A DNA stretch of 64,000 nucleotides from Spirochaetaceae bacterium (GTDB lineage Bacteria; Spirochaetota; Spirochaetia; DSM-2461), in the NCBI GenBank assembly GCA_051531975.1, contig JAOPTT010000005.1:256001-320000 (forward strand), given 5' to 3'. Below the pieces are notes generated by a model, which worked only from the letters and a program-made list of their open reading frames with translations, was not told where the DNA came from and did not search any database. Made by a program: the position numbers and the translations under genes. Below are positions 5,715 to 19,356 of this stretch, in pieces. The first letter of the stretch is position 1; every line of letters starts with the position of its first letter.

Positions 5715-6497
5715 ATGATAACTAGATATAAAAAATTTTTGATTTTTTACTTGATTTTAACTTTATTTCCATCAATTGGATTTGCAGAGGAAACCATCCG
5801 TATAGCTACTGGAGAATACCCTCCATTCTTGTCAGAAAATTTAAAACACAATGGAGTAGGGCTCCGTATCATTAGAGAAGCCTTTGAGATAGTTGGAGTA
5901 AAAGTTGAATATGGGTTTTTTCCATGGAAACGAAGTTACCAACTTGCCTTAGATGGAGATTGGGATGCCACAGCCACCTGGGCTGATAAGCCTGGACGTA
6001 CTGAAGATTTTTATTTTAGCGATCCGTTATATAAATCTTTTTCCGGCTTTTTTCACCTTAAAACTTACGATTTTGAATGGGAAACTCTGGATGATTTAAA
6101 AGACATACCTATGGGAGCTATTTTAGGGTACACTTATGATGAAGAATTTTTACAAGCGGATAAAGAGGGAAGCATAAATGTTGAATATGTTTCTACACAA
6201 AAAAAGAACTTTCAAAAACTGCTATGGGGACGAATTAAAATCTGTCGAGCGCATATCGATGTAGGATATGCAATACTTGCAAAAGACTTTTCAGAAGATG
6301 AAAGAGAATTGATAACTCATCATCCTCATACGTTCCCTAAAAATGATACTTTTCTAATCTTTTCTAAAAATATTGATAGAAACAAAGAGATGGTAAAATT
6401 GTTCAATGAAGGTTTAAAGCAGATGAAAGAAGATGGTAAGATTGAAGAATATTTCAAAGAGTCCCGTGCAGGTGAATATCTTTTACAGGAGAAATAG
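5715..6497 (+). CDS. Periplasmic amino-acid-type substrate-binding protein (PBPb/family 3)
   Basis: Signal peptide; IRIATGEYPPF, FPWKR, GAILGYTY, FNEGLKQMKEDG; stop overlaps the next GTG start. Confidence 0.88.
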   Translation: MITRYKKFLIFYLILTLFPSIGFAEETIRIATGEYPPFLSENLKHNGVGLRIIREAFEIVGVKVEYGFFPWKRSYQLALDGDWDATATWADKPGRTEDFYFSDPLYKSFSGFFHLKTYDFEWETLDDLKDIPMGAILGYTYDEEFLQADKEGSINVEYVSTQKKNFQKLLWGRIKICRAHIDVGYAILAKDFSEDERELITHHPHTFPKNDTFLIFSKNIDRNKEMVKLFNEGLKQMKEDGKIEEYFKESRAGEYLLQEK

Positions 6498-8377
6498 TGA
6501 TAATAGAAAAAGATAGTCATAACCGGTTAGCACGTCGCCTTCTTTTATATGTAGTGTTATGCAGTGTCGGTTTTACATTTCTGGTTGCCACAGTCCAACT
6601 GTTTGGGGAGTACAGTTCTGAAGTTGAATCTATTCACGATACTATGAGTTATATTGAGAACAGTTATGTCCCAAATATCGCATTGAGCATATACCTAGTA
6701 GAAGATGAATTAATAAAGGTACTCCTTGAAGGAGCTTTACATTTTAAGGAAATCCAATACTTGGAGATTCAAGAAAAGCGAGGTGGAGAGATAGTCACAA
6801 GATTTGCAGGAAAAGCGGATGCTGCAAGAGATATTGTCAAAGAGTATCAAATAAAATATCGTGGATCGTCAGGAGAAAATATTTCCTATGGTGTACTAAT
6901 CGTAGCAGCCAGTCTGGATGAAGTATATCAACGTCTCTGGAAAAAATCCTTAGACATATTGGTTACCACTGCAATGATAACGTTTTTTACTACCATGTGT
7001 GTATTCCTTTTAATCCAATTTATGATAACACGTCATCTTAAAACAATCTCTAAATACACACATACTCTTGACTTGGATAAAATTGGATTAAAATTAACAT
7101 TAAATCGTAAAGAATCTGTTGAAATAGATGAATTAAGTCAAGTTGTACATTCAATTAACACCATGCAGGAAAGATTGAAAAATGGCATCACTAAACGCAA
7201 ACAGGCCGAGGAAGAGAAGATTAACCTCCAAGACCAACTACAGCAATCCCGAAAAATGGACGCAATAGGTCAACTTGCCGGTGGAGTTGCCCATGACTTT
7301 AATAATATGCTCACTGGCATAATTGGTGCAGCTCAATTGCTTCAGAACCCAATACGAAACCTTGATGAAAAAGGATTGGCATATGTCGAGATGATTCTCG
7401 ATGCCTCAAATAGAGCCTCAGATTTAACCACAAAATTATTGGCTTTTGGACGAAAAGGTAAAATAATTTCTACCTCTATAGATATCCATACCATTGTTGA
7501 TGATACACTGGCACTTTTTAATAGATCCATCGATAAAAAAATAAGGATTTCAGCTTCTAAAAATGCAGAACAATCAACTGTAATTGGTGATAATACAGCC
7601 TTACAAAATTCATTGTTAAATTTGGGAATAAATGCCTCTCATGCAATGCCTGATGGTGGTGAGTTAACAATCGAGACAAGAAATATTATACTTAATAATA
7701 ATTATTGCAATTCAAGTCCTTTTGACATATCAGAGGGGAATTATATAGAAATTACAATTAGAGATACAGGTAACGGAATTACTCCTGATAATATAAATAA
7801 AATATTTGAACCATTTTTTACAACAAAAAAGCAAGGGGAAGGAACTGGGTTAGGATTAGCGTCTGTATATGGAACAATTCAAGATCATCACGGAGTAATA
7901 AATGTTTATAGTGAAATTGGGATAGGTACAGTATTTAATCTTTATTTACCTTGCTCAGATGATGTGGTTAAAAAAAATCCTATGGAAAAAATTGTATTAG
8001 AAGGTGCTGGTCAAGTTCTTCTCGTCGATGATGAAGAACTCGTTCGTATGACTGGTAAATATACCCTTGAAGAAATGGGCTACAAAGTTATCCTTGCTGA
8101 AAATGGACTAGAAGCAATCGATATATTTGAAAAGAATTTTCATGATATAGATCTTGTGATTTTGGATATGATAATGCCGAAAATGAACGGAACAGAAGCT
8201 TTTGAAAAAATGAAAAAAATTGATGAAAATTGCAAAATAATTATCTCTTCCGGTTTCACAAAAGATGAAAATTTGAATGAGTTGAGAAAAAAAGGTCTTA
8301 CCGGTTTTATTCAAAAGCCATTTCGAGATTATGAGTTGAGCAAATTGTTGTCTGAGATTTTAAAAATTAATAATTAA
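6497..8377 (+). CDS. Hybrid sensor histidine kinase/response regulator (TM, HAMP-like linker, HisKA, HATPase, REC)
   Basis: GGVAHDFNN H-box; FEPFFTTK, GTGLGL; receiver LLVDDE...LDMIMP...KPF. Confidence 0.93.
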   Translation: MIIEKDSHNRLARRLLLYVVLCSVGFTFLVATVQLFGEYSSEVESIHDTMSYIENSYVPNIALSIYLVEDELIKVLLEGALHFKEIQYLEIQEKRGGEIVTRFAGKADAARDIVKEYQIKYRGSSGENISYGVLIVAASLDEVYQRLWKKSLDILVTTAMITFFTTMCVFLLIQFMITRHLKTISKYTHTLDLDKIGLKLTLNRKESVEIDELSQVVHSINTMQERLKNGITKRKQAEEEKINLQDQLQQSRKMDAIGQLAGGVAHDFNNMLTGIIGAAQLLQNPIRNLDEKGLAYVEMILDASNRASDLTTKLLAFGRKGKIISTSIDIHTIVDDTLALFNRSIDKKIRISASKNAEQSTVIGDNTALQNSLLNLGINASHAMPDGGELTIETRNIILNNNYCNSSPFDISEGNYIEITIRDTGNGITPDNINKIFEPFFTTKKQGEGTGLGLASVYGTIQDHHGVINVYSEIGIGTVFNLYLPCSDDVVKKNPMEKIVLEGAGQVLLVDDEELVRMTGKYTLEEMGYKVILAENGLEAIDIFEKNFHDIDLVILDMIMPKMNGTEAFEKMKKIDENCKIIISSGFTKDENLNELRKKGLTGFIQKPFRDYELSKLLSEILKINN

Positions 8378-8527
8378 ATTCGAACACTAAAAAAGTATTT
8401 ACTAATGCTAAGAGTGATTCCAGAGTGTCTATAAGATAATTAATTCCTCTTCGTCCAGGACTTTCATTCAGAGGAATATGAATTCTATTGAATCTAAAAA
8501 AACAACACAGTCTCTAGGAGGACTTAC

Positions 8528-8977
8528 ATGAAGCTGAACATAAAAAAGAGCTTATACACAATTGAACCAATTATCCCTATATTGGGGGCATTATATTTAT
8601 TATAAGCCAATCTCTCCATATTCTGGGTCAATACCGATAAAGTCCACTTACCAGGCTTATGGGCAGTATTGACAACTATCCCAGTAATTCTGATTTTCTG
8701 CGTAGCAGCTCTTGCTCTCTTTTTTAGAATTAAGAGACCTGAAGACAACTCACAAAAATCAGTTTCTCCTCTATAGGCTTTACTTAATTTAGGACTAATA
8801 GCCTTTATTGTAATCACTTTTTTTGAAATGACCACTTTTGATACTTATCATCCTCTGTACGCTTCTGGAGCCTTTATTTACGGCAGCATGACCGGTCTTC
8901 TGCTCTTTTGTGCCAAGCTTTTAATCGACGCTCTTCGTATGGTGTTTACAAAGAAGACAGATGAACATTTTAAATGA
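8528..8977 (+). pseudogene. Small multi-TM membrane protein interrupted by two in-frame stops
   Basis: AGGAGG SD then ATG 8528; a single 150-codon frame to TGA 8975-8977 with TAA 8603-8605 and TAG 8774-8776; hydrophobic on both sides of each stop. Confidence 0.6.
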
Positions 8978-9063
8978 TTTTATATACTAATAATCCTTTT
9001 CTATGGATTTCATCTGATTTGTGCCTTCGTGCAGCCTGGCTATGAATTTCGGCTCTTTACTGA

Positions 9064-9828
9064 GAGAACTACTTTGCTGTTGCAGTTATTTTCTGTCTTT
9101 TAGGTGCTATCTCAATATTTCAAGGTGGACTATTCACCCGTGAGCGTGCTGGAAATCCTGCTCATGAGCATAAATTACACTTGAAAGACAATCTAAAGTC
9201 AATATTTGGCAATGTACCACTACTTCTTGTTTTACTCTCTCTTCAGATGGTTATGATGATGTATTTTGCAAAATACAACCTACAAAATGAAGATCTTATG
9301 ACAGTTATTGCGGGTATAAGTCTAGTATCTATGGCTATAGGTTCAGGTCTTGTTCCCTGGCTTTCAAAATATATTTCTGGAAAGAGACTTGTTCTTTTAA
9401 GTGGATTTGTTCTATCCATATTAGGGACTGTTATGTACTTTGTCGGTTATCATAATATTCTTGTATTCTACATTTTTGCCTTTTTATGGGGTATATTCAT
9501 GGGATTCCCTGAAGTTATACGTACTACAATGATAGCAAACACAGTTGAATGGATGGAGAAAAAAACTGGTAAACGTTGCGATGCAACCATATTTTCGACT
9601 CTAACATTCATTGGAAAACTCATTGCAGGGTTGTTACTTGCATATGTTGGTTTTAAGGCAAATGTCGTACAATCACCTGCCGTACTGGATACCCTTTTTC
9701 AAACTATGACAATAATTCCTGGTATTGGATCACTGATTATGATAATACCTCTGTTCTTTTATAATATTGATGAAAAAACTCATCAGAAACTTGTAGAGGA
9801 ACTATCTAATAATTCGGAAGTTTCATAA
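9064..9828 (+). pseudogene. 5'-truncated glycoside-pentoside-hexuronide (MelB/GPH-like) MFS sugar:cation symporter
   Basis: Frame open from 9064 (YFAVAVIFCLLG...FTRER...LKDNLKSIFGN) with no SD; GPH C-terminal motif MIANTVEWMEKKTGKRCDATIFS; only about the C-terminal half present. Confidence 0.75.
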
Positions 9829-9881: not shown

Positions 9882-11486
9882 TTATTTTTCCAACTCCTGG
9901 CCTAACTTTTTAAGATTAAGTACACTCTGCTCACCAACATCTTTTACAATTGAACTCTCTTCTTCAAGAATTAACATCTTCTCCTGTGTATGTCCAATAG
10001 ATTCCAAAACTAATTCTGATGATTTTAGCTGTTGTACCATTGAGTGAGATATCTGTTGGATTTGATCATTTACATCTCTTATTCCGCTTCTTACTTCAGA
10101 TGTAGATGAGACGGATTGTGCATTACCGTTATTAATATCCTGTGTACCTGCGGAAAGTTCTGTAACTCCCGATAAGATCTCATCCATACCGGATACAACA
10201 TTTTTAATCTCTTCCCTTATCTGGTGGAATGAGTTAGTCGCTGTGCTATTTATATCAGTAGCTGAATTAATTGCTTCACTAATCTTTTTTAACATATCAG
10301 AGATAGTTTTAACGTTATTACCTGAGTTTTCAGATAGTTTTCTTATCTCATCTGCAACAACTGCAAAACCTTTTCCTGCATCACCTGCATGGGCAGCTTC
10401 AATTGCAGCATTCATAGCCAAAAGGCTGGTCTGGGACGCAATATTACTAATAACACTATTTACTTCACCTAAAGATTGTATTAGACCTTGTAAGTTCTCC
10501 ATAGCAGAAGTGGATTCTGATAGTACTTCTTCTGCTCTTTCAGCATTAACCGATAATTTAGTTACAATTAACTTTCTATCCTCTGCGATCTTAGCGATAT
10601 TATTTATTGAACTTGCCATCTCTTCAATTGCTGCTGAAGTCTGTTCAATTACAACAGTTTGGGTTTCACTGGATTTAGATACAACTTCTGAACTCTCTGC
10701 TATAGATGAACTAGACTGTTGTAAGACTCCTGTAGATTCAGAAAGTATAGCAACCTCCTGTTTAATAGAGAGAATCATATCTTTAACTTCTGTAACAGCA
10801 CTTGACATTTTATTTGAAGATTCCATAAGCTCCTCTCCAGTATCAAAATCCCCTTGTAGTTTACCAACAATAGTATGTAAATGCTTTGTTCTTTCTAGGT
10901 TTAAAGAGCTCTCTTTTGATATTGATTCAACAAGATTACGCCCCCGTTTATTAGAACTAATAACAATTATTCCTGAAAAAATTATTAATATCATTGCAAT
11001 AATAGGGTCATCTATAGTTGGTGCTTTATCGTTTAGATTCGCAGGTAAAGCCCTAAAAAAGTGATTAAAGATTATGGCTAAAGATCCAAGAACCATGACT
11101 ATAGCTGGTTCTTTCGGTTTTTCAGTAACTAATAGAGTGATAACAAGGACAAACATCTGAAGAAAAGCGATGAAATATACATCTACATATGATGCTATAT
11201 TCATTGTTAAAATTAGCATTGAGCAAGCAATGGATAAAAAAGTTATAGTAATTGATCTTGCTACATTCATTTTATTCATCTTAACTAAAAAAGTTATGGA
11301 CAGGGTTAAAAAACTCATAATCACCATATATGTTGGGGTCTTTTCCCCTTCGATAATTACAGAAAGAAGAATGAAAATACCTGTTAGACCTAATAATATT
11401 GAAACTAATGAAAAGGCCTGAGTATATAATACGTTATCATCTTCTTTATACCCGCTTAAATAAAACTTATCTATAATCTTTCTCAT
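9882..11486 (-). CDS. Methyl-accepting chemotaxis protein with a multi-TM N-terminal region
   Basis: Signalling hairpin [38 protein letters not shown]; about 6 N-terminal hydrophobic segments. Confidence 0.95.
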
Positions 11487-11542: not shown

Positions 11543-13714
11543 TTATTCAGATAAAAATCTATCTATAACTTGCTGACGATACTCTTTTGACAGAGAGGAA
11601 AAAAATGCTGAATATCCAGTTACCCTAATAACTAAGTCAGGGTGTTTTGAAGGATCTTCGTGAGCCTGCATCAATCTCTCTTTTGTAATACAATTTAAGT
11701 TTATTAATGTCCCACCCATATGGTTATGTGTTTTAATTAACGCCATTAAAGCCTCGATTCCACCTTCACTTTCAACTAGATTACTATCTATATCAAGGTG
11801 TAGTGGTGCGGAGTTCCCTAATCCTGGTTGTGTTTTAGCAACTGCTGTAGCTTTTAAGGATGGGGAAAAGGAGTTAATTCCTCTGGCAAAACCCGGGTCA
11901 GGGTCGTTTGAATGTGAAATAGGATCTTTATCAAATCGTCCATTTGGAGTTGCAGATAAACTTTTTCCGTAGGCATATACATCTCCATGGGAGAACATAC
12001 CGGGGATTATTCTTAACTGGTGTTTAGTTGTTGGGATTTTAGAATAATCCACAAAAAAATCACGTATTTTAAGTGCCCATTTTTCTGAGAGTGAGCCGGG
12101 AGACCCAAACCTGTCTATGTTTTTTAACATTAAACGTATATTCTCTTCATTTTCATAGTTTACATCTAATACATGGAGAAGTTTGTCCCAGGTTAGATTT
12201 TTTTCATTAACTACCCTTAACTCTATTGCAGCAAATGAGTCTGCAACAGTGGCAAGTGCAATACCATCGATACAGAAACTTATATTATCAACACCACCTT
12301 CCGCTACATTTAATCCACGTTCTATAGGACCGTGCATAAAGAGGTTTAAAACAATCTCAGGCTTATTTCTTGATATAACCTCATAGTGACAATCAAAACC
12401 ATCCTTTATTGAATCCAACATTATTTTTAAGTGATATGTAAACTTATCCCACAGAGTATCTAGATCTCTGGTTGTTAATGTTTTTAAATCACCTAGAGAT
12501 TCAACTAGAGCTGTTGCCATATTACATCTTGTTACATCCTGCATTGGATACTCAGTCCCTGGAAGAGCTGTCCAGTTACACCCAACTTTTGCTCTTAATC
12601 TAGCAGCCTGTATAGGAAATCCATTTTTTGAATAACCTTCTTCACACCCTATATTCAGTGAATAATCAACACCTGTTCCATCTGCAAGATTATATTCTAA
12701 ACTTCTGCGAAGTAATTCATCATCAACATCGTCATGCACTCTTAACGCAATGTTTACAGGTATTTTTATCTGGTGCATAGCTTCAAGGATTATATATGAC
12801 ATTTTACTTGTAACATCCCCTGAACCATCGGCCTTTAAACCTGCAATCTGGGAGTAGTGAGTATCATTAAAAAACAGACTTGATATATACCAGATAGCCA
12901 TATCATCTGTTAATATTCCATTTTTTATATCTCGATCGTAATATGGTTTTAATATTTCATCCAGCTGTGAAAGTGCTCCACCAGCAAAATAAGTCCTATC
13001 AAAAACTTGGAAATGTGCTAAAAACTGACACGATTCCCTAAGGGTTCTTGGAGGATTATCTATAAGCCATCTATTTATCTTGGCTATTTCTATATAATTA
13101 TTACGTTTAAAACTATCTTGCTCTGTCTCTGCAAGGTCTTCTGCGTAATTAGCATGATTCGTTATCCACTGCTTAATTCCCAGTAGTAGTAACTCTTCCC
13201 CATCATAAAATGAGGTATCGGTTGGATTGTTTTTGGCTCTATAATGTCTAACTTTATTAAGAAGGCCTGCCCAACCAAGTTCTAAACCTATATTCATATC
13301 AGGACCAAAGTGGTTCATAGCTCCAAATCCACTTTGCCAAATGTTGTATCTATTCCAAATCTTTTCCAGATGTAAAGGTCTGTCTTCAGGGATAATATCA
13401 ATTTTAACCCAGTTTTGAAGATAACCAACCCAGCATCCAGCTAGGGCACTATTTGCATTTATGTATTTTGGGGATTCATTGAGATATTTTCTAAAAGTTT
13501 CACCAATAGCTTTAGAACCATATATATAACCGTCTTTGTGATTTGGCTCTGCAGTAAAATTAAAATCCGGATGTAGAATAAATCCATGATCATCGACATC
13601 TATATATCCAAGTTTTTTAATTTTATCACTATTTATTGATATTTTATTTTTATGAAGTCCATTAATTAATTTTTTATATTTATCTGAAACTGTTATTTTC
13701 TCAAAATAGTTCAT
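11543..13714 (-). CDS. Glycyl radical enzyme (PFL superfamily), uncharacterised class
   Basis: C-terminal glycyl loop HPDLVIRVTGYSAFF; ATPNGR motif; single-Cys loop KVGCNW; adjacent activating enzyme. Confidence 0.92.
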   Translation of the reverse strand: MNYFEKITVSDKYKKLINGLHKNKISINSDKIKKLGYIDVDDHGFILHPDFNFTAEPNHKDGYIYGSKAIGETFRKYLNESPKYINANSALAGCWVGYLQNWVKIDIIPEDRPLHLEKIWNRYNIWQSGFGAMNHFGPDMNIGLELGWAGLLNKVRHYRAKNNPTDTSFYDGEELLLLGIKQWITNHANYAEDLAETEQDSFKRNNYIEIAKINRWLIDNPPRTLRESCQFLAHFQVFDRTYFAGGALSQLDEILKPYYDRDIKNGILTDDMAIWYISSLFFNDTHYSQIAGLKADGSGDVTSKMSYIILEAMHQIKIPVNIALRVHDDVDDELLRRSLEYNLADGTGVDYSLNIGCEEGYSKNGFPIQAARLRAKVGCNWTALPGTEYPMQDVTRCNMATALVESLGDLKTLTTRDLDTLWDKFTYHLKIMLDSIKDGFDCHYEVISRNKPEIVLNLFMHGPIERGLNVAEGGVDNISFCIDGIALATVADSFAAIELRVVNEKNLTWDKLLHVLDVNYENEENIRLMLKNIDRFGSPGSLSEKWALKIRDFFVDYSKIPTTKHQLRIIPGMFSHGDVYAYGKSLSATPNGRFDKDPISHSNDPDPGFARGINSFSPSLKATAVAKTQPGLGNSAPLHLDIDSNLVESEGGIEALMALIKTHNHMGGTLINLNCITKERLMQAHEDPSKHPDLVIRVTGYSAFFSSLSKEYRQQVIDRFLSE

Positions 13715-13723
13715 TTTATACTC

Positions 13724-14617
13724 CTATTTTATATTCAAACCACAAGCTTTAAGCTCAATTTTTGCTATTTCCACTTGTTCTTTTGTAGGTATTATAAACT
13801 TGTTATAATCCATTTCAAGCAGATTGTACTTATTTTCACCTAGTTTATGATAAGGAAGTATCTCTACACTTTTAATATTAAGAGGTTTTAATATATCTCC
13901 CATCTTCTTAAACTGATTTTCATTAACTCCAATAATAAGGGGGATTCTTATAATAATATCCTTATTATTCTCTGATAATTTTTTTAAGTTTTCCAATATT
14001 AAATAATTATCCACACCTGTATATTTTTTGTAGATATTTGTATCTGCAGCTTTAAGATCAAAAAGAAAAAGATCGGTAACATCCAAAATTCTTTCAAAAG
14101 AACTCCATGGGACATTTCCTGCAGTATCAATTGCGGTATGTATGTTCTCTTTTTTACAATCAGTTAAAATTGTCTCTAAAAACTCTATTTGAAGCATAGA
14201 CTCTCCACCGGAAAATGTTACACCACCATCTGAATTATTAAAATAATCCCTATCAGTTAGTATATTTTCTAAAACATTTTTTCGGTCTATATCTTTTCCC
14301 ACACCTACAATTGCTTCTGCAAAACAGTTCTGGGCACATTTAAAACATGCGGTACAGGAGTCTCTATCTATCTTATGAATGTTTTTATTATCCAACAGAT
14401 GAACACTGTTTTGACAAACATCAAAACAGTTATTACAAACGATACATTTATCAGGATAAAATTCTATATGATTTTTGTGTTTTATAGATTCAGGATTATG
14501 GCACCAGGAACATTTTAGGTTGCAACCTTTAAAAAAAACTACAGTCCTTATTCCTGGGCCATCATGAACAGAAAAACGTTGAATATCAAAGATTCTTGCG
14601 TTATTTATTTTTTTCAC
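13724..14617 (-). CDS. Glycyl-radical enzyme activating enzyme (radical SAM with ferredoxin insert)
   Basis: FDIQRFSVHDGPGIRTVVFFKGCNLKCSWCHNPES; CIVCNNCFDVC and CTACFKCAQNC; GGVTFSGGE; LPYHKLG. Confidence 0.95.
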   Translation of the reverse strand: MKKINNARIFDIQRFSVHDGPGIRTVVFFKGCNLKCSWCHNPESIKHKNHIEFYPDKCIVCNNCFDVCQNSVHLLDNKNIHKIDRDSCTACFKCAQNCFAEAIVGVGKDIDRKNVLENILTDRDYFNNSDGGVTFSGGESMLQIEFLETILTDCKKENIHTAIDTAGNVPWSSFERILDVTDLFLFDLKAADTNIYKKYTGVDNYLILENLKKLSENNKDIIIRIPLIIGVNENQFKKMGDILKPLNIKSVEILPYHKLGENKYNLLEMDYNKFIIPTKEQVEIAKIELKACGLNIK

Positions 14618-16976
14618 TTTCCAACCGCAGTTGTACTAGGACATCGGGACGTACACATACAAAATCCGGTCCTAAACTTTTCTGAACTTCCTGAAGTCTG
14701 TCCATTGACCAGTTCCAGTTAAGAACCCACGCTTCAATAAAATTCTCTCCACGTGTAGCAGCTTCACGGATTTCACCAGCCATATGTTCCACTCGTTCCT
14801 CTATAGGTAGAGAAGGAGCAAAAGAGGATGCTGAGCGACAGGCGACAACATCGTTTGGAGCTACCCTTGCACAAGCAGCACTAGGAGCACCTCCATAACC
14901 TGTAAAAATACCCTTTAGCTGACCTGTTGAGTGTTTTGCATATCTATCTTCCTCATCGTTTCCACCATTAATTAACCAGAGACAGGATGTATCAATCGAG
15001 CTCATTGCTTTCTCTGTCATTAAAGCATACTTTGTATATAGCTCTTCCCGCTGCTCTGGGTAGGCCATAAGATAAATTATAGGTTCTGTATATCCAACAC
15101 CAAGTCCACCAACAAGCAAGTCGTTTTCCGATGCTGTTCTAAGGTAATAATTAAGTACGGTCGGAGCCATCATAGCTGCAGATGGAGCAAATGACCAACC
15201 CATAGGAATTGAGCCTCGTTGTGTCTTATCCCACTGTAGTTCCCTAGTCTGGAGCATTAATGCCTCCCCAAGATTATCTCCATCGGACATTATATGTGTA
15301 TAATAAACTTTATCTGGATCCAGTTTAGGAACATTTGGTTTCTTGTGTTTATACCCTCCTGTTTCTACACCGGAGTGAATTGTCAGATTTGTTGCTTCAT
15401 GGGATGGGGTTAGTATTTTACCAAAAAAAGAACCAAGTAGAAGTCCAGGTTCTTCTAATACAGCATCAGCCATACGATCCCCACCTTCTGGAACATTTGG
15501 CATCCAGTCAAACCACCAGCCTATTATTGGAGTATTTGGTGGAGTTGAGGCCAATATACCTCGAAGAAGATTCTCTTCCGGTAAGGTTCTTGTCATTGGA
15601 AACCAGAAAGTAAATATTTTAAATGATACAAGGTAATCAGTTAACAGAAAGATTCCAGGATAACATGTCGCCAGTATATTATGATTCATTTTTGGGTAGA
15701 GTTCAGTGTATGCCCAGTGCATCATCTCGTACTGGGAGGACCACTTGCCTCTAACATCAAAAATAACTGGTAGATTTAATTTTTCATTCATCTGGGGGGT
15801 TACCGGTACAGCGTCCTCTATGGAACCGATCATCATAACTACATTGGTCTCATTTAGACTGTTTGCATATTTTTGTCCAATGTTATCCATGATTGAACCA
15901 TCGTAAATAACTGAACCGTTAATTTTATCCCTAAAAATATCCCATGTTTGAGACTGGGAAACCATTTTAGAGGTATAACCTTCAAAGTGCAGCTCTTCAA
16001 GCCACTCTCTATCCTGTCTGTCATACCTAGTATGAAGAAGGTATAAAGATGGTTTTTTCCGGTTTACAAGTCCCTGAAGTACCGAAAATGCAAACTCCTC
16101 CTGGGGTGTAGCACTACTTACATCAAGAATATAAAGTGTTTTGGCAGGTCTAGGTGATTGTGGCCATAAGTTTGGATAAGGTTTTATTCCAGTAACCGGT
16201 TCATAACCAACAGGTACATCTTGGAAAGGCTGAAAACTTCCAGTCTCATTAAGTCGGTATTCAAAAGAGTTTACCCAGGCTTTATCCCACTCTGTTGCAA
16301 ATGCATCATTTTTTAGACTTTCAAGGACAAGCCGGGTCTCTTCATCTTTTTTAGCAGAAGCGTATATCTCTAACAATGCAAAACGAGATAATATTCTACT
16401 AAGATTATCAGGACAATCCTCTATTAATTTGTTTAATTTCCAAGTAACATTATCTGGAGTATCTAAAATGTCTACTTGCCAACTAACATTCCATGGATCA
16501 TCTCCTGAGTGTATTTTTACTAATATAGTGTTTACTCCAGGTTTAAGGTGACATAGCATATAGTCGTATTGTAACCTTATACCAGGGTGGGGGATAGTTC
16601 TGTAAAGAGTTTGTTCTTCATTTATCCATGCTGCAACTATTGCTTCGGAACCTATAGTTATTTCCGCTATTTGTTCATATTTAACTTCAACTTCTAAATG
16701 TATGTAATAGACACTCCATGTCTCTCTATCATGATCCATTACAGAACCAGACTGCCACGGTGTAACTCCATTTTTCCCAGGATACTCTGAATTAGGATCG
16801 AAACCTTCTTCTGGTGGATAGGGTATAAATACTCCCTGATATCCGGCGTTCTCATATGGACCTGAAAAATGAAGACTTTTAGGTATTAATGTTGTCTTCT
16901 TTGGAAAACTTTTTTCAAGTAGAGTTTGCCATTTAGCCCTTGCAGTATTGTTAATATTATTAACTAATTGTTTCAT
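14601..16976 (-). CDS. GxGYxYP-family putative glycoside hydrolase with extra N-terminal beta-sandwich-like domain, no signal peptide
   Basis: LQGLVNRKKPSLY, TDYLVS, NLTIHSG, MSDGDNL, RGSIPMGWS and GGLGVGYTEP match the GxGYxYP N/C domain pattern. Confidence 0.78.
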   Translation of the reverse strand: MKQLVNNINNTARAKWQTLLEKSFPKKTTLIPKSLHFSGPYENAGYQGVFIPYPPEEGFDPNSEYPGKNGVTPWQSGSVMDHDRETWSVYYIHLEVEVKYEQIAEITIGSEAIVAAWINEEQTLYRTIPHPGIRLQYDYMLCHLKPGVNTILVKIHSGDDPWNVSWQVDILDTPDNVTWKLNKLIEDCPDNLSRILSRFALLEIYASAKKDEETRLVLESLKNDAFATEWDKAWVNSFEYRLNETGSFQPFQDVPVGYEPVTGIKPYPNLWPQSPRPAKTLYILDVSSATPQEEFAFSVLQGLVNRKKPSLYLLHTRYDRQDREWLEELHFEGYTSKMVSQSQTWDIFRDKINGSVIYDGSIMDNIGQKYANSLNETNVVMMIGSIEDAVPVTPQMNEKLNLPVIFDVRGKWSSQYEMMHWAYTELYPKMNHNILATCYPGIFLLTDYLVSFKIFTFWFPMTRTLPEENLLRGILASTPPNTPIIGWWFDWMPNVPEGGDRMADAVLEEPGLLLGSFFGKILTPSHEATNLTIHSGVETGGYKHKKPNVPKLDPDKVYYTHIMSDGDNLGEALMLQTRELQWDKTQRGSIPMGWSFAPSAAMMAPTVLNYYLRTASENDLLVGGLGVGYTEPIIYLMAYPEQREELYTKYALMTEKAMSSIDTSCLWLINGGNDEEDRYAKHSTGQLKGIFTGYGGAPSAACARVAPNDVVACRSASSFAPSLPIEERVEHMAGEIREAATRGENFIEAWVLNWNWSMDRLQEVQKSLGPDFVCVRPDVLVQLRLESEKNK

Positions 16977-17118: not shown

Positions 17119-17196
17119 TTGACAAACAGTATTGTTATTGTAATATTTTAGACGTAATAACTTGTATAATGAATCCAGATATTTGATATGTCATAT
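17119..17196 (+). promoter_or_regulatory. Candidate GH3 promoter(s) and operator box
   Basis: TTGACA (17119) -16- TAATAT; TATAAT at 17165; box TGATATGTCATAT (17184-17196) is 12/13 identical to the minus-strand box TGATATGTTATAT of the divergent promoter. Confidence 0.45.
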
Positions 17197-17229
17197 TTAT
17201 TCATTATATATAAGGGAGAAAAGGTTTCC

Positions 17230-19356
17230 ATGGCAGATTATAAAAAAATGGCTAACGATATAATTTCAGATATGACAGTAAAAGAGAAGGTTTCACAGAT
17301 GGTTCATGGAGCCAGGGGAATCTCCAGACTGCAGATCCCTGCTTATAACTGGTGGAATGAGTGTTTACATGGTGTTGGTAGAGCTGGTATTGCAACTGTA
17401 TTTCCCCAGCCAATAGGTTTGGCTGCTATGTTTGATGATAATTTTTTAAAAGAGATCGCTGAAGTTATTTCCGATGAGGTTAGGGCTAAATATAATGAAG
17501 TTAATATTGTAGATAAAAAGATACAATCATCAAAATTATTAGGAAAATTACAAGCTCATAAATTATGGTACAGAGGATTAACATGCTGGAGTCCAAACAT
17601 CAATATATTTAGGGACCCAAGGTGGGGACGTGGACATGAAACTTTTGGTGAAGATCCATATCTAACCAGTAGGTTAGGAGTCGCATTTATTAAAGGTCTA
17701 CAAGGTGAAAATCCAGAGTTTCTGAAAGTTGTTGCAACACCAAAACATTTTGCTGTTCATAGTGGTCCTGAGTTTAACAGGCATAGTTTTAACTCTGTTG
17801 TAAATAAAAAAGATCTATACGAAACATATCTTCCGGCATTTAAAGCCTGTATTCAGGAGGGTAAAGCCGCATCTATAATGACAGCATATAACGCTTTTAA
17901 TGGGGAACCTTGTGCATCAAGCGAAGAACTCCTACAACATATTTTAAGGGATGAGTGGGGTTTTAATGGTTTTGTTGTATCAGATTGTGGAGCAATTCAA
18001 GATATCAGAAAACATCATAAAAAGACAAAAAGTAATACTGTAGCTGCATCAATGGCTGTAAATGCAGGTTGTGATCTAAACTGTGGAACAATGTATAATT
18101 TCTTAGCTAATGCTGTAAAAAAAGGACTTGTTACAGAAGACACCCTAGATATAAGTTTAACTAGACTTTTTGAAGCACGTATTAAACTAGGAATGTTATC
18201 TTCTAGAACAAAAAATCCATATGATGAAATTAAACCTGATGTTATAAACTGTAAAAAACATCGGGATCTTGCTTTAGAAGCTTCAAAAAAATCACTTGTT
18301 TTACTAAAAAATGATGGTATATTGCCATTAAAAAAAGAGATAAAAAAAATAGCGGTTATAGGTCCAAATGCAGATTCTAAATCCGTACTTTTAGGTAATT
18401 ATAGTGGTGATCCTTCATCTTTTTCTACTATATTAAGTGGAATAAAAAAATCATTTTATGGTGAAGTTCTTTATACTCAAGGTTGCCACTTAACTAAAAC
18501 AAATACTAAAGATTTTAAAAAGGTTATAGCCCTCGCAAAAGAAGCAGATGTCGTTATATTAGCGATTGGTCTAGCTCCTGAAATAGAAGGAGAAGAGGGG
18601 GATGCATTTAATTCAGATGCTGCCGGGGATAAACTTACAATAAAATTACCTGGACTTCAGGAGAACTTAATTAAAACCCTTAATAATGTAGGAACTCCTG
18701 TTGTAGCTACTGTTTTAGCTGGTAGTGCCCTTGATTTAAGAGTGCTTGAAAAAAACTCTTCTGCAATTATTCAAGCATGGTATCCGGGGCAGGATGGAGG
18801 GGAAGCAGTTGCAAAACTAATCTTTGGTGAATACTCTCCATCAGGTAGACTTCCTGTTACTTTTGTTGAATCAGATAGTGATCTACCAGATTTTGAAGAT
18901 TATTCAATGGTAGGAAGAACATACAGGTTTTTAAATAAACCCCCACTGTATCCATTTGGTTTTGGATTAAGTTATACCAACTTTGATTATGATAACCTGG
19001 TAACATCCTGGACTGGTAGTGAAGAGAACAAAAGTCTGAAAGTTAGTATTACAGTTAAAAATACAGGTAATATAGACTCAGATGAAATAGTACAATATTA
19101 CTATAAATTTCATGACAAAGATAATAACTCTGCAAATTTCCAGCTATGCAAGTTTAGTCGAATAACTTTAAAAGTTGGTGAAACTGTAACCTTAGAGACA
19201 AATATTCCTTTAGAAATGTTTAAAGGTATAGATAACAATGGGAAATCAGTACTAAGAAATGGGGATTACACTATATTTGTTGGAGGTTCCGGGCCTGATA
19301 AAAGAAGTGAACAGTTAGTTAAAAGAGAAGTGCTAAAATTGAGCTTTAAATTATAA
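17230..19356 (+). CDS. GH3 beta-glucosidase/beta-xylosidase, cytoplasmic
   Basis: WWNECLHG, WSPNINIFRDPRWGRGHETFGEDP, KHFAVH, nucleophile region VVSDCGA, EGEEGD, YPFGFGLSY. Start placed at ATG 17230 after a purine-rich SD-like stretch. Confidence 0.93.
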   Translation: MADYKKMANDIISDMTVKEKVSQMVHGARGISRLQIPAYNWWNECLHGVGRAGIATVFPQPIGLAAMFDDNFLKEIAEVISDEVRAKYNEVNIVDKKIQSSKLLGKLQAHKLWYRGLTCWSPNINIFRDPRWGRGHETFGEDPYLTSRLGVAFIKGLQGENPEFLKVVATPKHFAVHSGPEFNRHSFNSVVNKKDLYETYLPAFKACIQEGKAASIMTAYNAFNGEPCASSEELLQHILRDEWGFNGFVVSDCGAIQDIRKHHKKTKSNTVAASMAVNAGCDLNCGTMYNFLANAVKKGLVTEDTLDISLTRLFEARIKLGMLSSRTKNPYDEIKPDVINCKKHRDLALEASKKSLVLLKNDGILPLKKEIKKIAVIGPNADSKSVLLGNYSGDPSSFSTILSGIKKSFYGEVLYTQGCHLTKTNTKDFKKVIALAKEADVVILAIGLAPEIEGEEGDAFNSDAAGDKLTIKLPGLQENLIKTLNNVGTPVVATVLAGSALDLRVLEKNSSAIIQAWYPGQDGGEAVAKLIFGEYSPSGRLPVTFVESDSDLPDFEDYSMVGRTYRFLNKPPLYPFGFGLSYTNFDYDNLVTSWTGSEENKSLKVSITVKNTGNIDSDEIVQYYYKFHDKDNNSANFQLCKFSRITLKVGETVTLETNIPLEMFKGIDNNGKSVLRNGDYTIFVGGSGPDKRSEQLVKREVLKLSFKL

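What the first reader, a model, noticed from the sequence alone, without database searches (positions are those of the whole stretch)
11543..13714. Compact GRE with an atypical GCNW cysteine loop
Seen: 723 aa; Cys loop AKVGCNWTALPG (about 12570-12590); glycyl loop RVTGYS (about 11610-11627). Known: PFL has a Cys-Cys pair; eliminases such as CutC, HypD and glycerol/propanediol dehydratases have GCxE with a catalytic Glu; arylacetate decarboxylases have GCxE or GCxQ; BSS has a different loop. Asn-Trp after the Cys fits none of these, so this is not a PFL and it lacks the usual general base. Inference: different substrate and mechanism.
Basis: partly seen in the sequence, partly recalled or inferred. 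Interest (0 to 1): 0.75.

Follow-up and report, generated by a model that had tools for sequence, protein, structure and literature searches.

The report
Uncharacterised glycyl radical enzyme, Cys-x-Trp loop
This gene encodes an intact glycyl radical enzyme from a large, untested branch of the family in which a tryptophan replaces the usual catalytic glutamate, and it sits among sugar-degrading genes, so it probably does radical chemistry on a carbohydrate that nobody has yet identified.

Summary
ORF 11543-13714 (-) encodes a 723-aa glycyl radical enzyme (GRE) with AKVGCNWTALPG (Cys379) and RVTGYS (Gly700). Cys379 is the thiyl cysteine: it is invariant in 130 of 130 aligned GREs. It aligns without gaps on the GC of PflD, HpsG and glycerol dehydratase, so Trp381 takes the place of their Glu. 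GCNW is not a one-off. All 120 best homologues carry it, and in a tree of 86 GREs the 31 Cys-x-Trp sequences form one clade (support 100). That clade has no characterised member, no curated family model and no solved structure above 20% identity. A dedicated activase lies directly upstream, preceded by a cytoplasmic GxGYxYP putative glycosidase. In 53 of 72 related loci, sugar transporters, glycoside hydrolases or sugar oxidoreductases lie within four genes.

The equivalents of glycerol dehydratase His164, Tyr339 and Asp447 are kept (His135, Tyr287, Asp393).

Best reading: a radical C-O-cleaving enzyme for a sugar-sized substrate, with Trp381 as a stacking platform. Substrate and reaction are untested. 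It is a new variant of a known kind and a good target for enzyme discovery.

The parts
11543..13714 (-). Glycyl radical enzyme, 723 aa (P0001), Cys-x-Trp clade
   Evidence: ORF and translation. Pfam PFL-like 1.5e-64 and Gly_radical 1.3e-12. AlphaFold2 model with pLDDT 94.9 and pTM 0.94. Foldseek matches to solved GREs with TM 0.74-0.85.
12557..12592 (-). Cys loop AKVGCNWTALPG. Cys379 (12578-12580) is the predicted thiyl site; Trp381 replaces the Cys-loop Glu.
   Evidence: Cys379 is invariant in 130 of 130 GREs. It aligns without gaps to GC-x-E of PflD, HpsG and GD. In the model it is at the tip of a hairpin between strands 375-376 and 382-383.
11609..11626 (-). Glycyl radical loop RVTGYS, Gly700 (11615-11617)
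   Evidence: Gly700 is invariant in 130 of 130. It is at the hairpin tip between strands 695-697 and 702-704. RVTGYS occurs in 118 of 120 homologues and RVTGFS in 2 of 120.
13724..14617 (-). GRE-activating radical SAM enzyme, 297 aa (P0272); ends 9 nt before the GRE start
   Evidence: TIGR02494 1.6e-100, 336 bits against a cutoff of 174. It carries CNLKCSWC (CX3CX2C) and two ferredoxin-type Cys motifs. A GGAG sequence precedes the GRE ATG. An activase lies directly upstream on the same strand in 51 of 69 related loci.
14601..16976 (-). GxGYxYP-family putative glycoside hydrolase, 791 aa (P0271); overlaps the activase start by 17 nt, so it is the first gene of the operon
   Evidence: Pfam GxGYxYP_C 3.2e-36 plus three N-terminal GxGYxYP domains. 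The N-terminus is hydrophilic with no signal peptide by eye. SDGDN and an aligned Glu match the putative catalytic triad of BT2193/3sgg (PMC4071793). The same pairing with the GRE occurs in locus L064 only.
17188..19356 (+). Divergently transcribed GH3 beta-xylosidase-like gene, 722 aa; a neighbour, with membership of the system unproven
   Evidence: Pfam Glyco_hydro_3 N- and C-terminal domains and Fn3-like. NCBIfam Xyl3A 805 bits, below the cutoff of 1250.
9064..9828 (+). C-terminal half of a glycoside-pentoside-hexuronide/MFS_2 sugar symporter, apparently a gene remnant; any link to the GRE is uncertain
   Evidence: Pfam MFS_2 profile positions 242-427 only. TIGR00792 positions 213-436 only. 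Upstream membrane-like fragments lie in other frames.

Best explanation
The gene encodes a functional glycyl radical enzyme of an uncharacterised, monophyletic Cys-x-Trp clade. It is made as the last gene of a three-gene operon: cytoplasmic GxGYxYP glycosidase-like protein, activase, GRE. Proposed working: (1) the radical SAM activase installs a radical on Gly700; (2) Gly700 oxidises Cys379 to a thiyl radical; (3) the thiyl radical abstracts a hydrogen from a carbohydrate-derived, ring-sized polyhydroxylated substrate. That substrate could be a sugar, an anhydro- or methyl-sugar, an alditol or a cyclitol, released or imported by the surrounding sugar genes. It is held against Trp381, the residue that replaces the Cys-loop Glu, with Trp148 and Tyr389 and a very polar pocket. 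(4) The substrate radical loses an adjacent C-O substituent (dehydration, ring opening or ether cleavage). Acid/base help comes from residues kept from the dehydratase lineage (His135 = GD His164; Asp393 = GD Asp447) or from clade-specific acids (Glu388, Glu453) instead of the Cys-loop Glu. (5) The product radical takes the hydrogen back from Cys379, giving a deoxy-keto product that enters fermentation. Steps 1-2 rest on homology and conserved anatomy (about 0.85). The carbohydrate nature of the substrate is inferred from gene neighbourhoods and residue make-up (about 0.6). C-O cleavage with a relocated base is a reasoned guess (about 0.35).
For: GRE anatomy is complete. Cys379 and Gly700 are invariant in 130 of 130 sequences, both at hairpin tips of a high-confidence model, and the fold matches solved GREs with probability 1.0. 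The activase is adjacent and has all its Cys motifs. An activase lies directly upstream in 51 of 69 loci, and one clade member, P0130 (1052 aa), carries an N-terminal radical-SAM Cys motif, so it appears fused to an activase.

The clade is real. The 31 Cys-x-Trp rows form one side of a branch with SH-aLRT 100, and GCNW is present in 120 of 120 close homologues.

The Glu to Trp replacement is positional. Alignments to PflD, HpsG and GD are ungapped across G-C-x-[E/W]-x-x-x-P-G, and in every solved eliminase and isomerase that Glu hydrogen-bonds the substrate (review PMC13450708, sections 5.6 and 5.7).

Dehydratase-like residues are kept: His135 aligns with GD His164, Tyr287 with Tyr339 and Asp393 with Asp447, whereas GD His281/Ser282 become Gly246/Ala247, which leaves more room. 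Clade-specific residues are aromatic and charged: Trp148, Arg240, Trp381, Glu388, Tyr389, Asp393, Glu453.

Context: in 53 of 72 loci at least one sugar ABC transporter, glycoside hydrolase, GFO/IDH/MocA oxidoreductase or sugar-metabolism gene lies within four genes. Separately, sugar ABC transporters occur in 24 loci, glycoside hydrolases in 24 and GFO/IDH/MocA in 12. In this window the partners are a cytoplasmic GxGYxYP protein with its putative catalytic residues and a GH3.
Against: No substrate or activity was tested. The neighbourhoods are heterogeneous (GH38, GH2, GH43, GH36, GH4, GH65, GH78, GH95, GH99, GxGYxYP, unknown proteins of 735-815 aa), so no single sugar is indicated. 19 of 72 loci show no carbohydrate gene within four genes. 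No background rate for such genes in these sugar-rich genomes was measured.

Annotation used one representative per neighbour cluster; 19 clusters and ORFs under 170 aa were left unscanned.

Glu453 and Arg240 may lie outside the active site. The roles of GD Asp447 and Tyr339 are recalled, not taken from a call. Only the GCNW family's neighbourhoods were examined, not those of the other Cys-x-Trp subclades.
Confidence: 0.5

Rival explanations
1. A new reaction class that needs no heterolytic step at all. Examples are radical epimerisation or isomerisation of a sugar by hydrogen-atom shuttling, or a C-C bond rearrangement. The Glu would have been lost because no hydroxyl has to be deprotonated.
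For: Trp at Cys+2 occurs in 31 of 31 clade members and 0 of 55 others. All characterised eliminases and isomerases keep CXE. GREs without that Glu in the review (PFL) use different chemistry. The clade is deep and distinct.
Against: The equivalents of GD His164 and Asp447 are retained, and the clade has invariant acids, which is unexpected if no proton transfer is needed. No second conserved hydrogen donor was found: Cys357 is not conserved.
Confidence: 0.2
2. An ordinary small-molecule 1,2-eliminase (glycerol, propanediol, ethylene-glycol or amino-alcohol type) with the base moved elsewhere. The sugar genes nearby would then be incidental or only supply the small diol.
For: The closest folds are propanediol and glycerol dehydratases and CutC. 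His135, Tyr287 and Asp393 match GD residues. 19 of 72 loci lack sugar genes nearby.
Against: GD His281/Ser282 are replaced by Gly/Ala and the pocket residues are bulky aromatics plus many polar groups. The TIGR01774 score is 180.6 against a cutoff of 678.2. No microcompartment shell, aldehyde dehydrogenase or alcohol dehydrogenase genes of the usual diol pathways appeared among the annotated neighbours.
Confidence: 0.12
3. A decarboxylase- or X-succinate-synthase-like GRE acting on a non-sugar substrate.
For: GREs without the Cys-loop Glu exist (PAD has Gln484).
Against: There is no room for small-subunit genes: gaps of 9 nt and 56 nt flank the GRE. No fumarate, beta-oxidation or aromatic-acid genes were seen in the neighbourhoods. 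In the tree the clade sits among the eliminase-like GREs.
Confidence: 0.04
4. A true pyruvate or 2-ketoacid formate-lyase, as public sources name its homologues.
For: Source names such as 'pyruvate-formate lyase' and 'formate C-acetyltransferase'.
Against: There is a single Cys on the loop, whereas PFL and TdcE need two. TIGR01255 scores 43.5 bits against 994 and matches only the C-terminal part. E. coli PflB is the long outgroup branch in the tree.
Confidence: 0.02
5. The real thiyl cysteine is Cys357 in the upstream IGCEEGY (a GCxE look-alike), or the protein is catalytically dead.
For: GC[EDC]-type motifs occur 22 residues upstream in 83 of 120 homologues.
Against: Cys357 is neither invariant nor near-invariant in 19 sequences, whereas Cys379 is. 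Cys379 is invariant in 130 of 130. Cys357 lies in predicted helix 354-363 and aligns with the non-Cys 'FNDE' region of PflD.
Confidence: 0.02

Closest known systems
B12-independent glycerol dehydratase (PDB 1r8w/1r9d) and propanediol dehydratase (5i2g), the C-O-cleaving GRE 1,2-eliminases
   Same: Same barrel fold (Foldseek E 1.9e-36 to 3.3e-36, TM about 0.83). Cys and Gly finger loops, and a dedicated two-ferredoxin-motif activase. GD His164, Tyr339 and Asp447 align with His135, Tyr287 and Asp393.
   Different: GD Glu435 becomes Trp381, and His281/Ser282 become Gly246/Ala247. Identity is only 17-18%. The protein is about 60 aa shorter. It falls below the TIGR01774 family cutoff (180.6 against 678.2). 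It lies in a sugar-gene rather than a diol or microcompartment context.
GRE isomerases PflD and YbiW (1,5-anhydromannitol-6-P and 1,5-anhydroglucitol-6-P ring-opening enzymes; 8yjo, 8id0, 8id7)
   Same: They are the only characterised GREs acting on sugar rings (review section 5.7). PflD is the second-best sequence match (2.2e-38) and shares the Asp at Cys+14. Both belong to carbohydrate catabolism.
   Different: They keep CXE: Glu433 in the S. dysgalactiae PflD (8id0; the aligned residue in E. coli PflD is Glu421) and Glu443 in YbiW. They act on phosphorylated substrates and, in E. coli, lie beside PTS components and fructose-6-phosphate aldolases. Here the neighbours are ABC transporters and glycosidases with no such aldolase. 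In the tree they fall outside the Cys-x-Trp clade.
Choline trimethylamine-lyase CutC
   Same: Best sequence hit in the PDB (6.1e-45) and the same fold.
   Different: CutC has GCVEP with the essential Glu491, scores 129.6 bits against a cutoff of 1050 for the CutC model, and has a different genomic context.
Pyruvate formate-lyase (the name most sources give the homologues)
   Same: Superfamily, Gly loop, activase partner.
   Different: PFL has a Cys-Cys pair and this protein has one Cys. Only the C-terminal about 185 residues match the PFL model.

Membership tests
Glycyl radical enzyme superfamily (PFL-like, IPR004184) | C-terminal fingerprint RVxG[FWY] holding the radical glycine | tested here: met
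   RVTGYS at 697-702. Pfam Gly_radical 1.3e-12. Gly700 invariant in 130 of 130. The fingerprint is as quoted in PMC11528403.
Glycyl radical enzyme superfamily (PFL-like, IPR004184) | Conserved mid-protein Cys on a finger loop | tested here: met
   Cys379 is invariant in 130 of 130, lies at a hairpin tip in the model, and aligns on the thiyl Cys of PflD, HpsG and GD.
Glycyl radical enzyme superfamily (PFL-like, IPR004184) | Ten-stranded beta/alpha barrel with the Cys and Gly loops meeting in its centre | tested here: inconclusive
   The fold matches solved GREs (probability 1.0, TM 0.74-0.85; model pLDDT 94.9).
Glycyl radical enzyme superfamily (PFL-like, IPR004184) | Adjacent radical SAM activating enzyme with CX3CX2C | tested here: met
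   P0272 lies 9 nt upstream. TIGR02494 scores 336 bits against a cutoff of 174. It has the CNLKCSWC motif and two ferredoxin-like Cys motifs.
Glycyl radical enzyme superfamily (PFL-like, IPR004184) | Formation of a stable glycyl radical (EPR, oxygen-dependent cleavage) | not testable with these tools
   Needs anaerobic biochemistry.
GRE 1,2-eliminases and GRE isomerases | [quoted passage not shown] | tested here: not met
   The loop is C379-N380-W381, and Trp aligns on the Glu of PflD, HpsG and GD. The motif definition is from review sections 5.6 and 5.7.
GRE 1,2-eliminases and GRE isomerases | NCBIfam TIGR01774 (PFL2/glycerol dehydratase family) score at or above 678.2 bits | tested here: not met
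   180.6 bits. Several Cys-x-Glu representatives pass with 699-913 bits.
GRE 1,2-eliminases and GRE isomerases | His equivalent to GD His164 (proposed proton donor to the leaving group) | tested here: met
   His135 aligns with GD His164. The position is kept in 90% of the clade. The role of His164 is from the review.
Formate lyases (PFL, TdcE) | Two adjacent Cys on the Cys loop; equivalog model score | tested here: not met
   There is one Cys (GCNW). TIGR01255 scores 43.5 against 994.2. The two-Cys rule is from the review.
GRE decarboxylases | Acid or amide at Cys+2 (Glu505 in HPAD, Glu502 in IAD, Gln484 in PAD) and, for HPAD, a small Fe-S subunit gene | tested here: not met
   Trp is at Cys+2. 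HPAD and IAD models score 102.7 and 92.7 bits against cutoffs of 1150 and 1100. There is no space for a small-subunit gene next to the GRE.
X-succinate synthases | Accessory beta and gamma subunit genes and a hydrocarbon/fumarate pathway context | tested here: not met
   Only 9-nt and 56-nt gaps flank the GRE, and the neighbours are sugar genes. The XSS Cys-loop sequence itself was not inspected.
Cys-x-Trp GRE clade (defined here) | Trp at Cys+2, with Asp at Cys+14 and Glu at the position of Glu453; falls on the clade's side of the tree branch | tested here: met
   Trp381, Asp393 and Glu453 are each present in 31 of 31 clade rows. The clade has SH-aLRT 100 and the window protein is nested in its GCNW[T/V/C] subfamily.

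The most novel reading that the evidence does not exclude
The Cys-x-Trp clade is an additional functional class of glycyl radical enzymes. It would perform radical chemistry directly on unphosphorylated carbohydrate rings (sugars, anhydro- or methyl-sugars, cyclitols) inside plant-biomass-degrading anaerobes. The tryptophan that replaced the catalytic glutamate would serve as a sugar-stacking platform, and the reaction would have no counterpart among the seven current classes. Candidates are radical deoxygenation, ether or ring C-O cleavage, or epimerisation.
Probability: 0.3. Interest if true: 0.85.

Novelty: new variant of a known kind. Interest (0 to 1): 0.65.

Why it matters
Each newly assigned GRE has so far revealed an anaerobic pathway that was invisible to annotation, such as choline to TMA, hydroxyproline, isethionate, and the anhydroalditol phosphates. 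The 2026 review notes that whole clades remain untested. This clade is easy to recognise by one residue. It is widespread in rumen, gut, termite, digester and sediment anaerobes, as judged from the record titles of the loci. It is wrongly named pyruvate formate-lyase in public records. It is embedded in glycan-utilisation loci. Assigning its substrate would correct many annotations. It could also expose a radical route for a carbohydrate that fermenters otherwise cannot use. Finally, it would test whether GRE eliminase chemistry can run without the Cys-loop glutamate.

Tried and rejected
1. Thiyl at Cys357 (GCEE): rejected, because it is not conserved, lies in a helix and aligns to a non-Cys region.

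2. PFL identity: rejected.

3. Fused forms that might betray the substrate: a 'longer' search (1267-3615 aa) found none at E <= 1e-30, which is weak evidence. The only fusion seen is activase-GRE, P0130.

4. ESM Atlas: returned only generic 'pyruvate-formate lyase' clusters, with no structure search possible.

5. Labelling reference GREs by NCBIfam among 55 representatives: only one equivalog passed its cutoff (HpsG, P0247). E. coli YbiW, PflD and PflB were therefore fetched as tree anchors.

6. Naming the recurrent unknown neighbours (clusters 10, 89, 70, 19, 46): no Pfam hit better than E = 0.01.

7. The GFO/IDH/MocA pair downstream in some genomes resembles inositol, levoglucosan and glycoside 3-dehydrogenases only weakly, all below cutoff. 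The DHDPS-family neighbour scores as a true DapA, so it is probably unrelated.

8. Promoter and terminator scans were at chance level. Base composition of the cassette is not atypical.

9. Active-site geometry, pocket volume and docking could not be done, because the model's coordinates are not exposed to scripts.

The original YbiW/PflD paper was not in the searchable library, so its active-site details come only from the review.

11. Eight of 79 loci (L039, L041, L044, L063, L067, L071, L075, L079) were dropped from the context counts because my simple ORF caller did not recover the GRE there.
Full report
**Observation**

The minus-strand ORF 11543-13714 encodes 723 residues. Translating 12557-12592 gives AKVGCNWTALPG, and 11609-11626 gives RVTGYS. 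Pfam finds PFL-like (1.5e-64) and Gly_radical (1.3e-12). No curated NCBIfam model accepts the protein. The broad PFL2/glycerol-dehydratase model TIGR01774 gives 180.6 bits against a cutoff of 678.2, and every equivalog model (HpsG, PflD-type, HypD, CutC, HPAD, IAD, PFL) is far below its cutoff.

**Which cysteine is the thiyl cysteine**

- phmmer against the PDB aligns kvGCnwtalPG on vvGCvelsiPG of E. coli PflD and on sGCtetrmP of HpsG. A second search aligns it on iiGCvepqkPG of glycerol dehydratase, with no gap between Cys and the PG.
- In a 130-sequence alignment that includes many canonical GREs, only five columns are invariant: Cys379, Gly592, Arg593, Pro688 and Gly700.
- The AlphaFold2 model (pLDDT 94.9, pTM 0.94) puts Cys379 at the tip of a hairpin (strands 375-376 and 382-383) and Gly700 at the tip of another (695-697 and 702-704). 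These are the two 'finger loops' of GREs.
- A look-alike GCEE lies 22 residues upstream (Cys357). Cys357 is neither invariant nor near-invariant among 19 close homologues. A motif of that type is present in only 83 of 120 homologues. It lies in predicted helix 354-363 and aligns to a non-Cys stretch of PflD.

**The motif defines a clade**

- The word-indexed protein search returned 1144 relatives among 7998 scored candidates. The best 120 (695-759 aa, 59-71% identity apart from the query itself) all carry GCNW: 120 of 120. 118 have RVTGYS and 2 have RVTGFS.
- The exhaustive search of 50%-identity representatives found 299 proteins at E <= 1e-30. Among its full-length hits the loop reads GCNW, GCHW, GCQW, GCFW, GCGW or GCYW down to about 25% identity.
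- A maximum-likelihood tree was built from 86 rows: 9 GCNW-family members including the window protein, the representatives of 640-960 aa, an HpsG equivalog, and E. coli YbiW, PflD and PflB. It used IQ-TREE LG+G4 with a quick search and SH-aLRT support only. All 31 Cys-x-Trp rows fall on one side of a branch with support 100, whereas Cys-x-Glu needs at least 7-9 changes.
- The clade lies among Cys-x-Glu eliminase-like lineages, with an SCNNP sequence as its sister. The backbone forks are weakly supported and the PflB root is a long branch, so I claim only the clade's unity.
- Clade lengths are 677-775 aa. Other GREs of 699-737 aa exist, so compactness is not diagnostic.

**What changed and what was kept in the active site**

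Residues present in at least 87% of the clade but rare elsewhere:

| Residue | In clade | In the other 55 GREs |
|---|---|---|
| Trp148 | 94% | 4% |
| Arg240 | 87% | 4% |
| Trp381 | 100% | 0% |
| Glu388 | 94% | 20% |
| Tyr389 | 94% | 16% |
| Asp393 | 100% | 18% |
| Glu453 | 100% | 2% |
| Pro637 | 90% | 4% |
| Thr699 | 94% | 11% |

The residue-by-residue alignment to glycerol dehydratase (GD) gives these equivalences:

| This protein | GD residue | Status |
|---|---|---|
| His135 | His164 | kept |
| Tyr287 | Tyr339 | kept |
| Asp393 | Asp447 | kept |
| Trp381 | Glu435 | replaced |
| Gly246/Ala247 | His281/Ser282 | replaced |

According to the 2026 review, in every solved eliminase and isomerase the Cys-loop Glu hydrogen-bonds the substrate. 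In GD, Glu435 deprotonates C1-OH while His164 protonates the leaving hydroxyl (PMC13450708, sections 5.6 and 5.7 read in full). That GD Asp447 and Tyr339 contact glycerol is my recollection, not a call.

The enzyme has thus lost the canonical base but not the whole acid/base apparatus. It has gained aromatic and charged residues of the kind that bind sugars. The GCNW family additionally has an invariant, very polar strand, N283-D-T-H-Y-S-Q289, at the position of the GD Tyr339 strand.

**Surroundings in the window**

- The GRE start is 9 nt downstream of a 297-aa activase and is preceded by GGAG. The activase scores 336 bits on TIGR02494 against a cutoff of 174. It carries CX3CX2C and two ferredoxin-type Cys motifs.
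- The activase start overlaps by 17 nt the end of a 791-aa GxGYxYP-family protein.
- That protein has a hydrophilic N-terminus with no signal peptide by eye. It keeps SDGDN and an aligned Glu. With an offset of 21 that I inferred between chain and paper numbering, these correspond to the putative catalytic Glu272, Asp331 and Asp333 of BT2193 (passages of PMC4071793).
- A GH3 beta-xylosidase-like gene is transcribed divergently. A chemotaxis receptor and a remnant of a GPH sugar symporter lie downstream.
- GC content is about 33% throughout the region.

**Surroundings in relatives**

One scan of species-representative genomes matched 205 stretches, of which 178 encode relatives. The best 80 gave 79 loci. 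These include Ruminiclostridium cellobioparum, Anaerocolumna spp., Robinsoniella peoriensis and Eisenbergiella tayi, many rumen, gut, termite and digester MAGs, and also Anaerolineae, Latescibacterota and others at 51-55% identity.

I called ORFs with a simple longest-ORF method, clustered them by BLASTP, and annotated one representative per cluster with Pfam. The GRE was recovered in 71 loci plus the window. Eight loci were dropped.

| Feature near the GRE | Loci |
|---|---|
| Activase directly upstream, same strand | 51 of 69 |
| Activase within four genes | 53 of 72 |
| Sugar ABC transporter components within four genes | 24 of 72 |
| Recognised glycoside hydrolase within four genes | 24 of 72 |
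| GFO/IDH/MocA oxidoreductases, often a pair directly downstream | 12 of 72 |
| URO-D-like proteins | 9 of 72 |
| At least one carbohydrate-related gene | 53 of 72 |
| No carbohydrate-related gene | 19 of 72 |

The glycoside hydrolases include GH38, GH2, GH43, GH4, GH36, GH59, GH65, GH78, GH95, GH99, GH106-like, DUF2961 and GxGYxYP. GxGYxYP next to the GRE recurs only in L064.

No background rate was measured, and the glycosidase families differ from genome to genome. The pattern is a mobile activase-GRE pair inserted into varied glycan-utilisation loci, often beside one large glycosidase-like protein. This argues for a substrate that is common to many such pathways rather than one particular glycan.

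**Comparison with what is known**

- Foldseek finds only the known GRE structures, at 16-20% identity and TM 0.74-0.85. Propanediol and glycerol dehydratases, an Archaeoglobus GRE, CutC and PflD rank first.
- The review lists seven classes. PFL and TdcE have two Cys. All eliminases and isomerases have CXE. HPAD has Glu505, IAD Glu502 and PAD Gln484. No Cys-x-Trp enzyme is mentioned, and the review states that entire clades lack validation.
- Six full-text searches found no paper on this clade. The search terms were: glycyl radical enzyme with GxGYxYP; with glycoside hydrolase and gene cluster; all 2024-2026 hits; anhydroglucitol; sequence similarity network with carbohydrate; polysaccharide utilization with Lachnospiraceae (listings and abstracts only, except the papers named above).
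- The aminoacyl-radical enzyme paper (passages) concerns Gly-to-Ala, -Ser and -Thr variants, not this protein.

The library omits most subscription journals, so absence of a paper is not proof.

**Verdict**

The sequence observation is correct and statistically solid. The protein is a complete, almost certainly active GRE that belongs to no characterised class. It belongs to a coherent, widespread Cys-x-Trp clade that public records mislabel as pyruvate formate-lyase.

The most likely role is radical transformation of a carbohydrate-derived, ring-sized substrate. I favour C-O cleavage using retained dehydratase residues (His135, Asp393) with Trp381 as the binding platform. A truly new reaction type remains open at about 0.2-0.3. 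It is a new variant of a known kind and a worthwhile target for experimental work.

Noticed in passing
window 8500-9828 (+): A glycoside-pentoside-hexuronide/MFS_2 sugar symporter appears broken. Only the C-terminal half (profile positions 242-427) is in the ORF at 9181-9828 (open frame from 9064). Hydrophobic fragments that could be the N-terminal half lie in other frames (8606-8776, 8777-8977).
   Followed up: partly
P0130 (representative): A 1052-aa member of the Cys-x-Trp clade (loop GCNWF) carries an N-terminal radical-SAM Cys motif, so activase and GRE appear fused in one polypeptide.
   Followed up: no
L052 9986-12156 (Anaerocolumna sedimenticola): The GRE homologue is split into a 527-aa ORF and a separate 196-aa ORF that holds the Gly_radical domain. 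This is a frameshift, a pseudogene or a sequencing error.
   Followed up: no
L059 (Latescibacterota MAG): Two copies of the GRE lie in one locus on opposite strands, with a URO-D-like gene between them.
   Followed up: no
L003, L012, L033, L043, L049, L054, L059, L061, L074: Uroporphyrinogen-decarboxylase-like (URO-D family) proteins recur within four genes of the GRE (9 of 72 loci), several directly downstream. Their role is unknown.
   Followed up: partly
L001, L017, L046, L050, L064, L065, L070, L078; L019/L030; L035/L072: Large neighbour proteins of 735-815 aa without any Pfam family (my clusters 10, 89, 70) sit beside the GRE, often with GH38. They may be unrecognised glycosidases.
   Followed up: partly
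window 14601-16976 (-), residues 1-280 of P0271: The GxGYxYP protein has an N-terminal region of about 280 aa with no Pfam match ahead of its GxGYxYP domains.
   Followed up: no
L049: A contig assigned to a 'Candidatus Methanoperedens' MAG carries a bacterial-type activase-GRE pair (52% identity). This could be a binning artefact or gene transfer.
   Followed up: no
window 5715-8377 (+) and 9882-11486 (-): A solute-binding protein gene followed by a CHASE5 hybrid histidine kinase/response regulator, and a methyl-accepting chemotaxis protein directly downstream of the GRE. No link to the GRE was examined.
   Followed up: no
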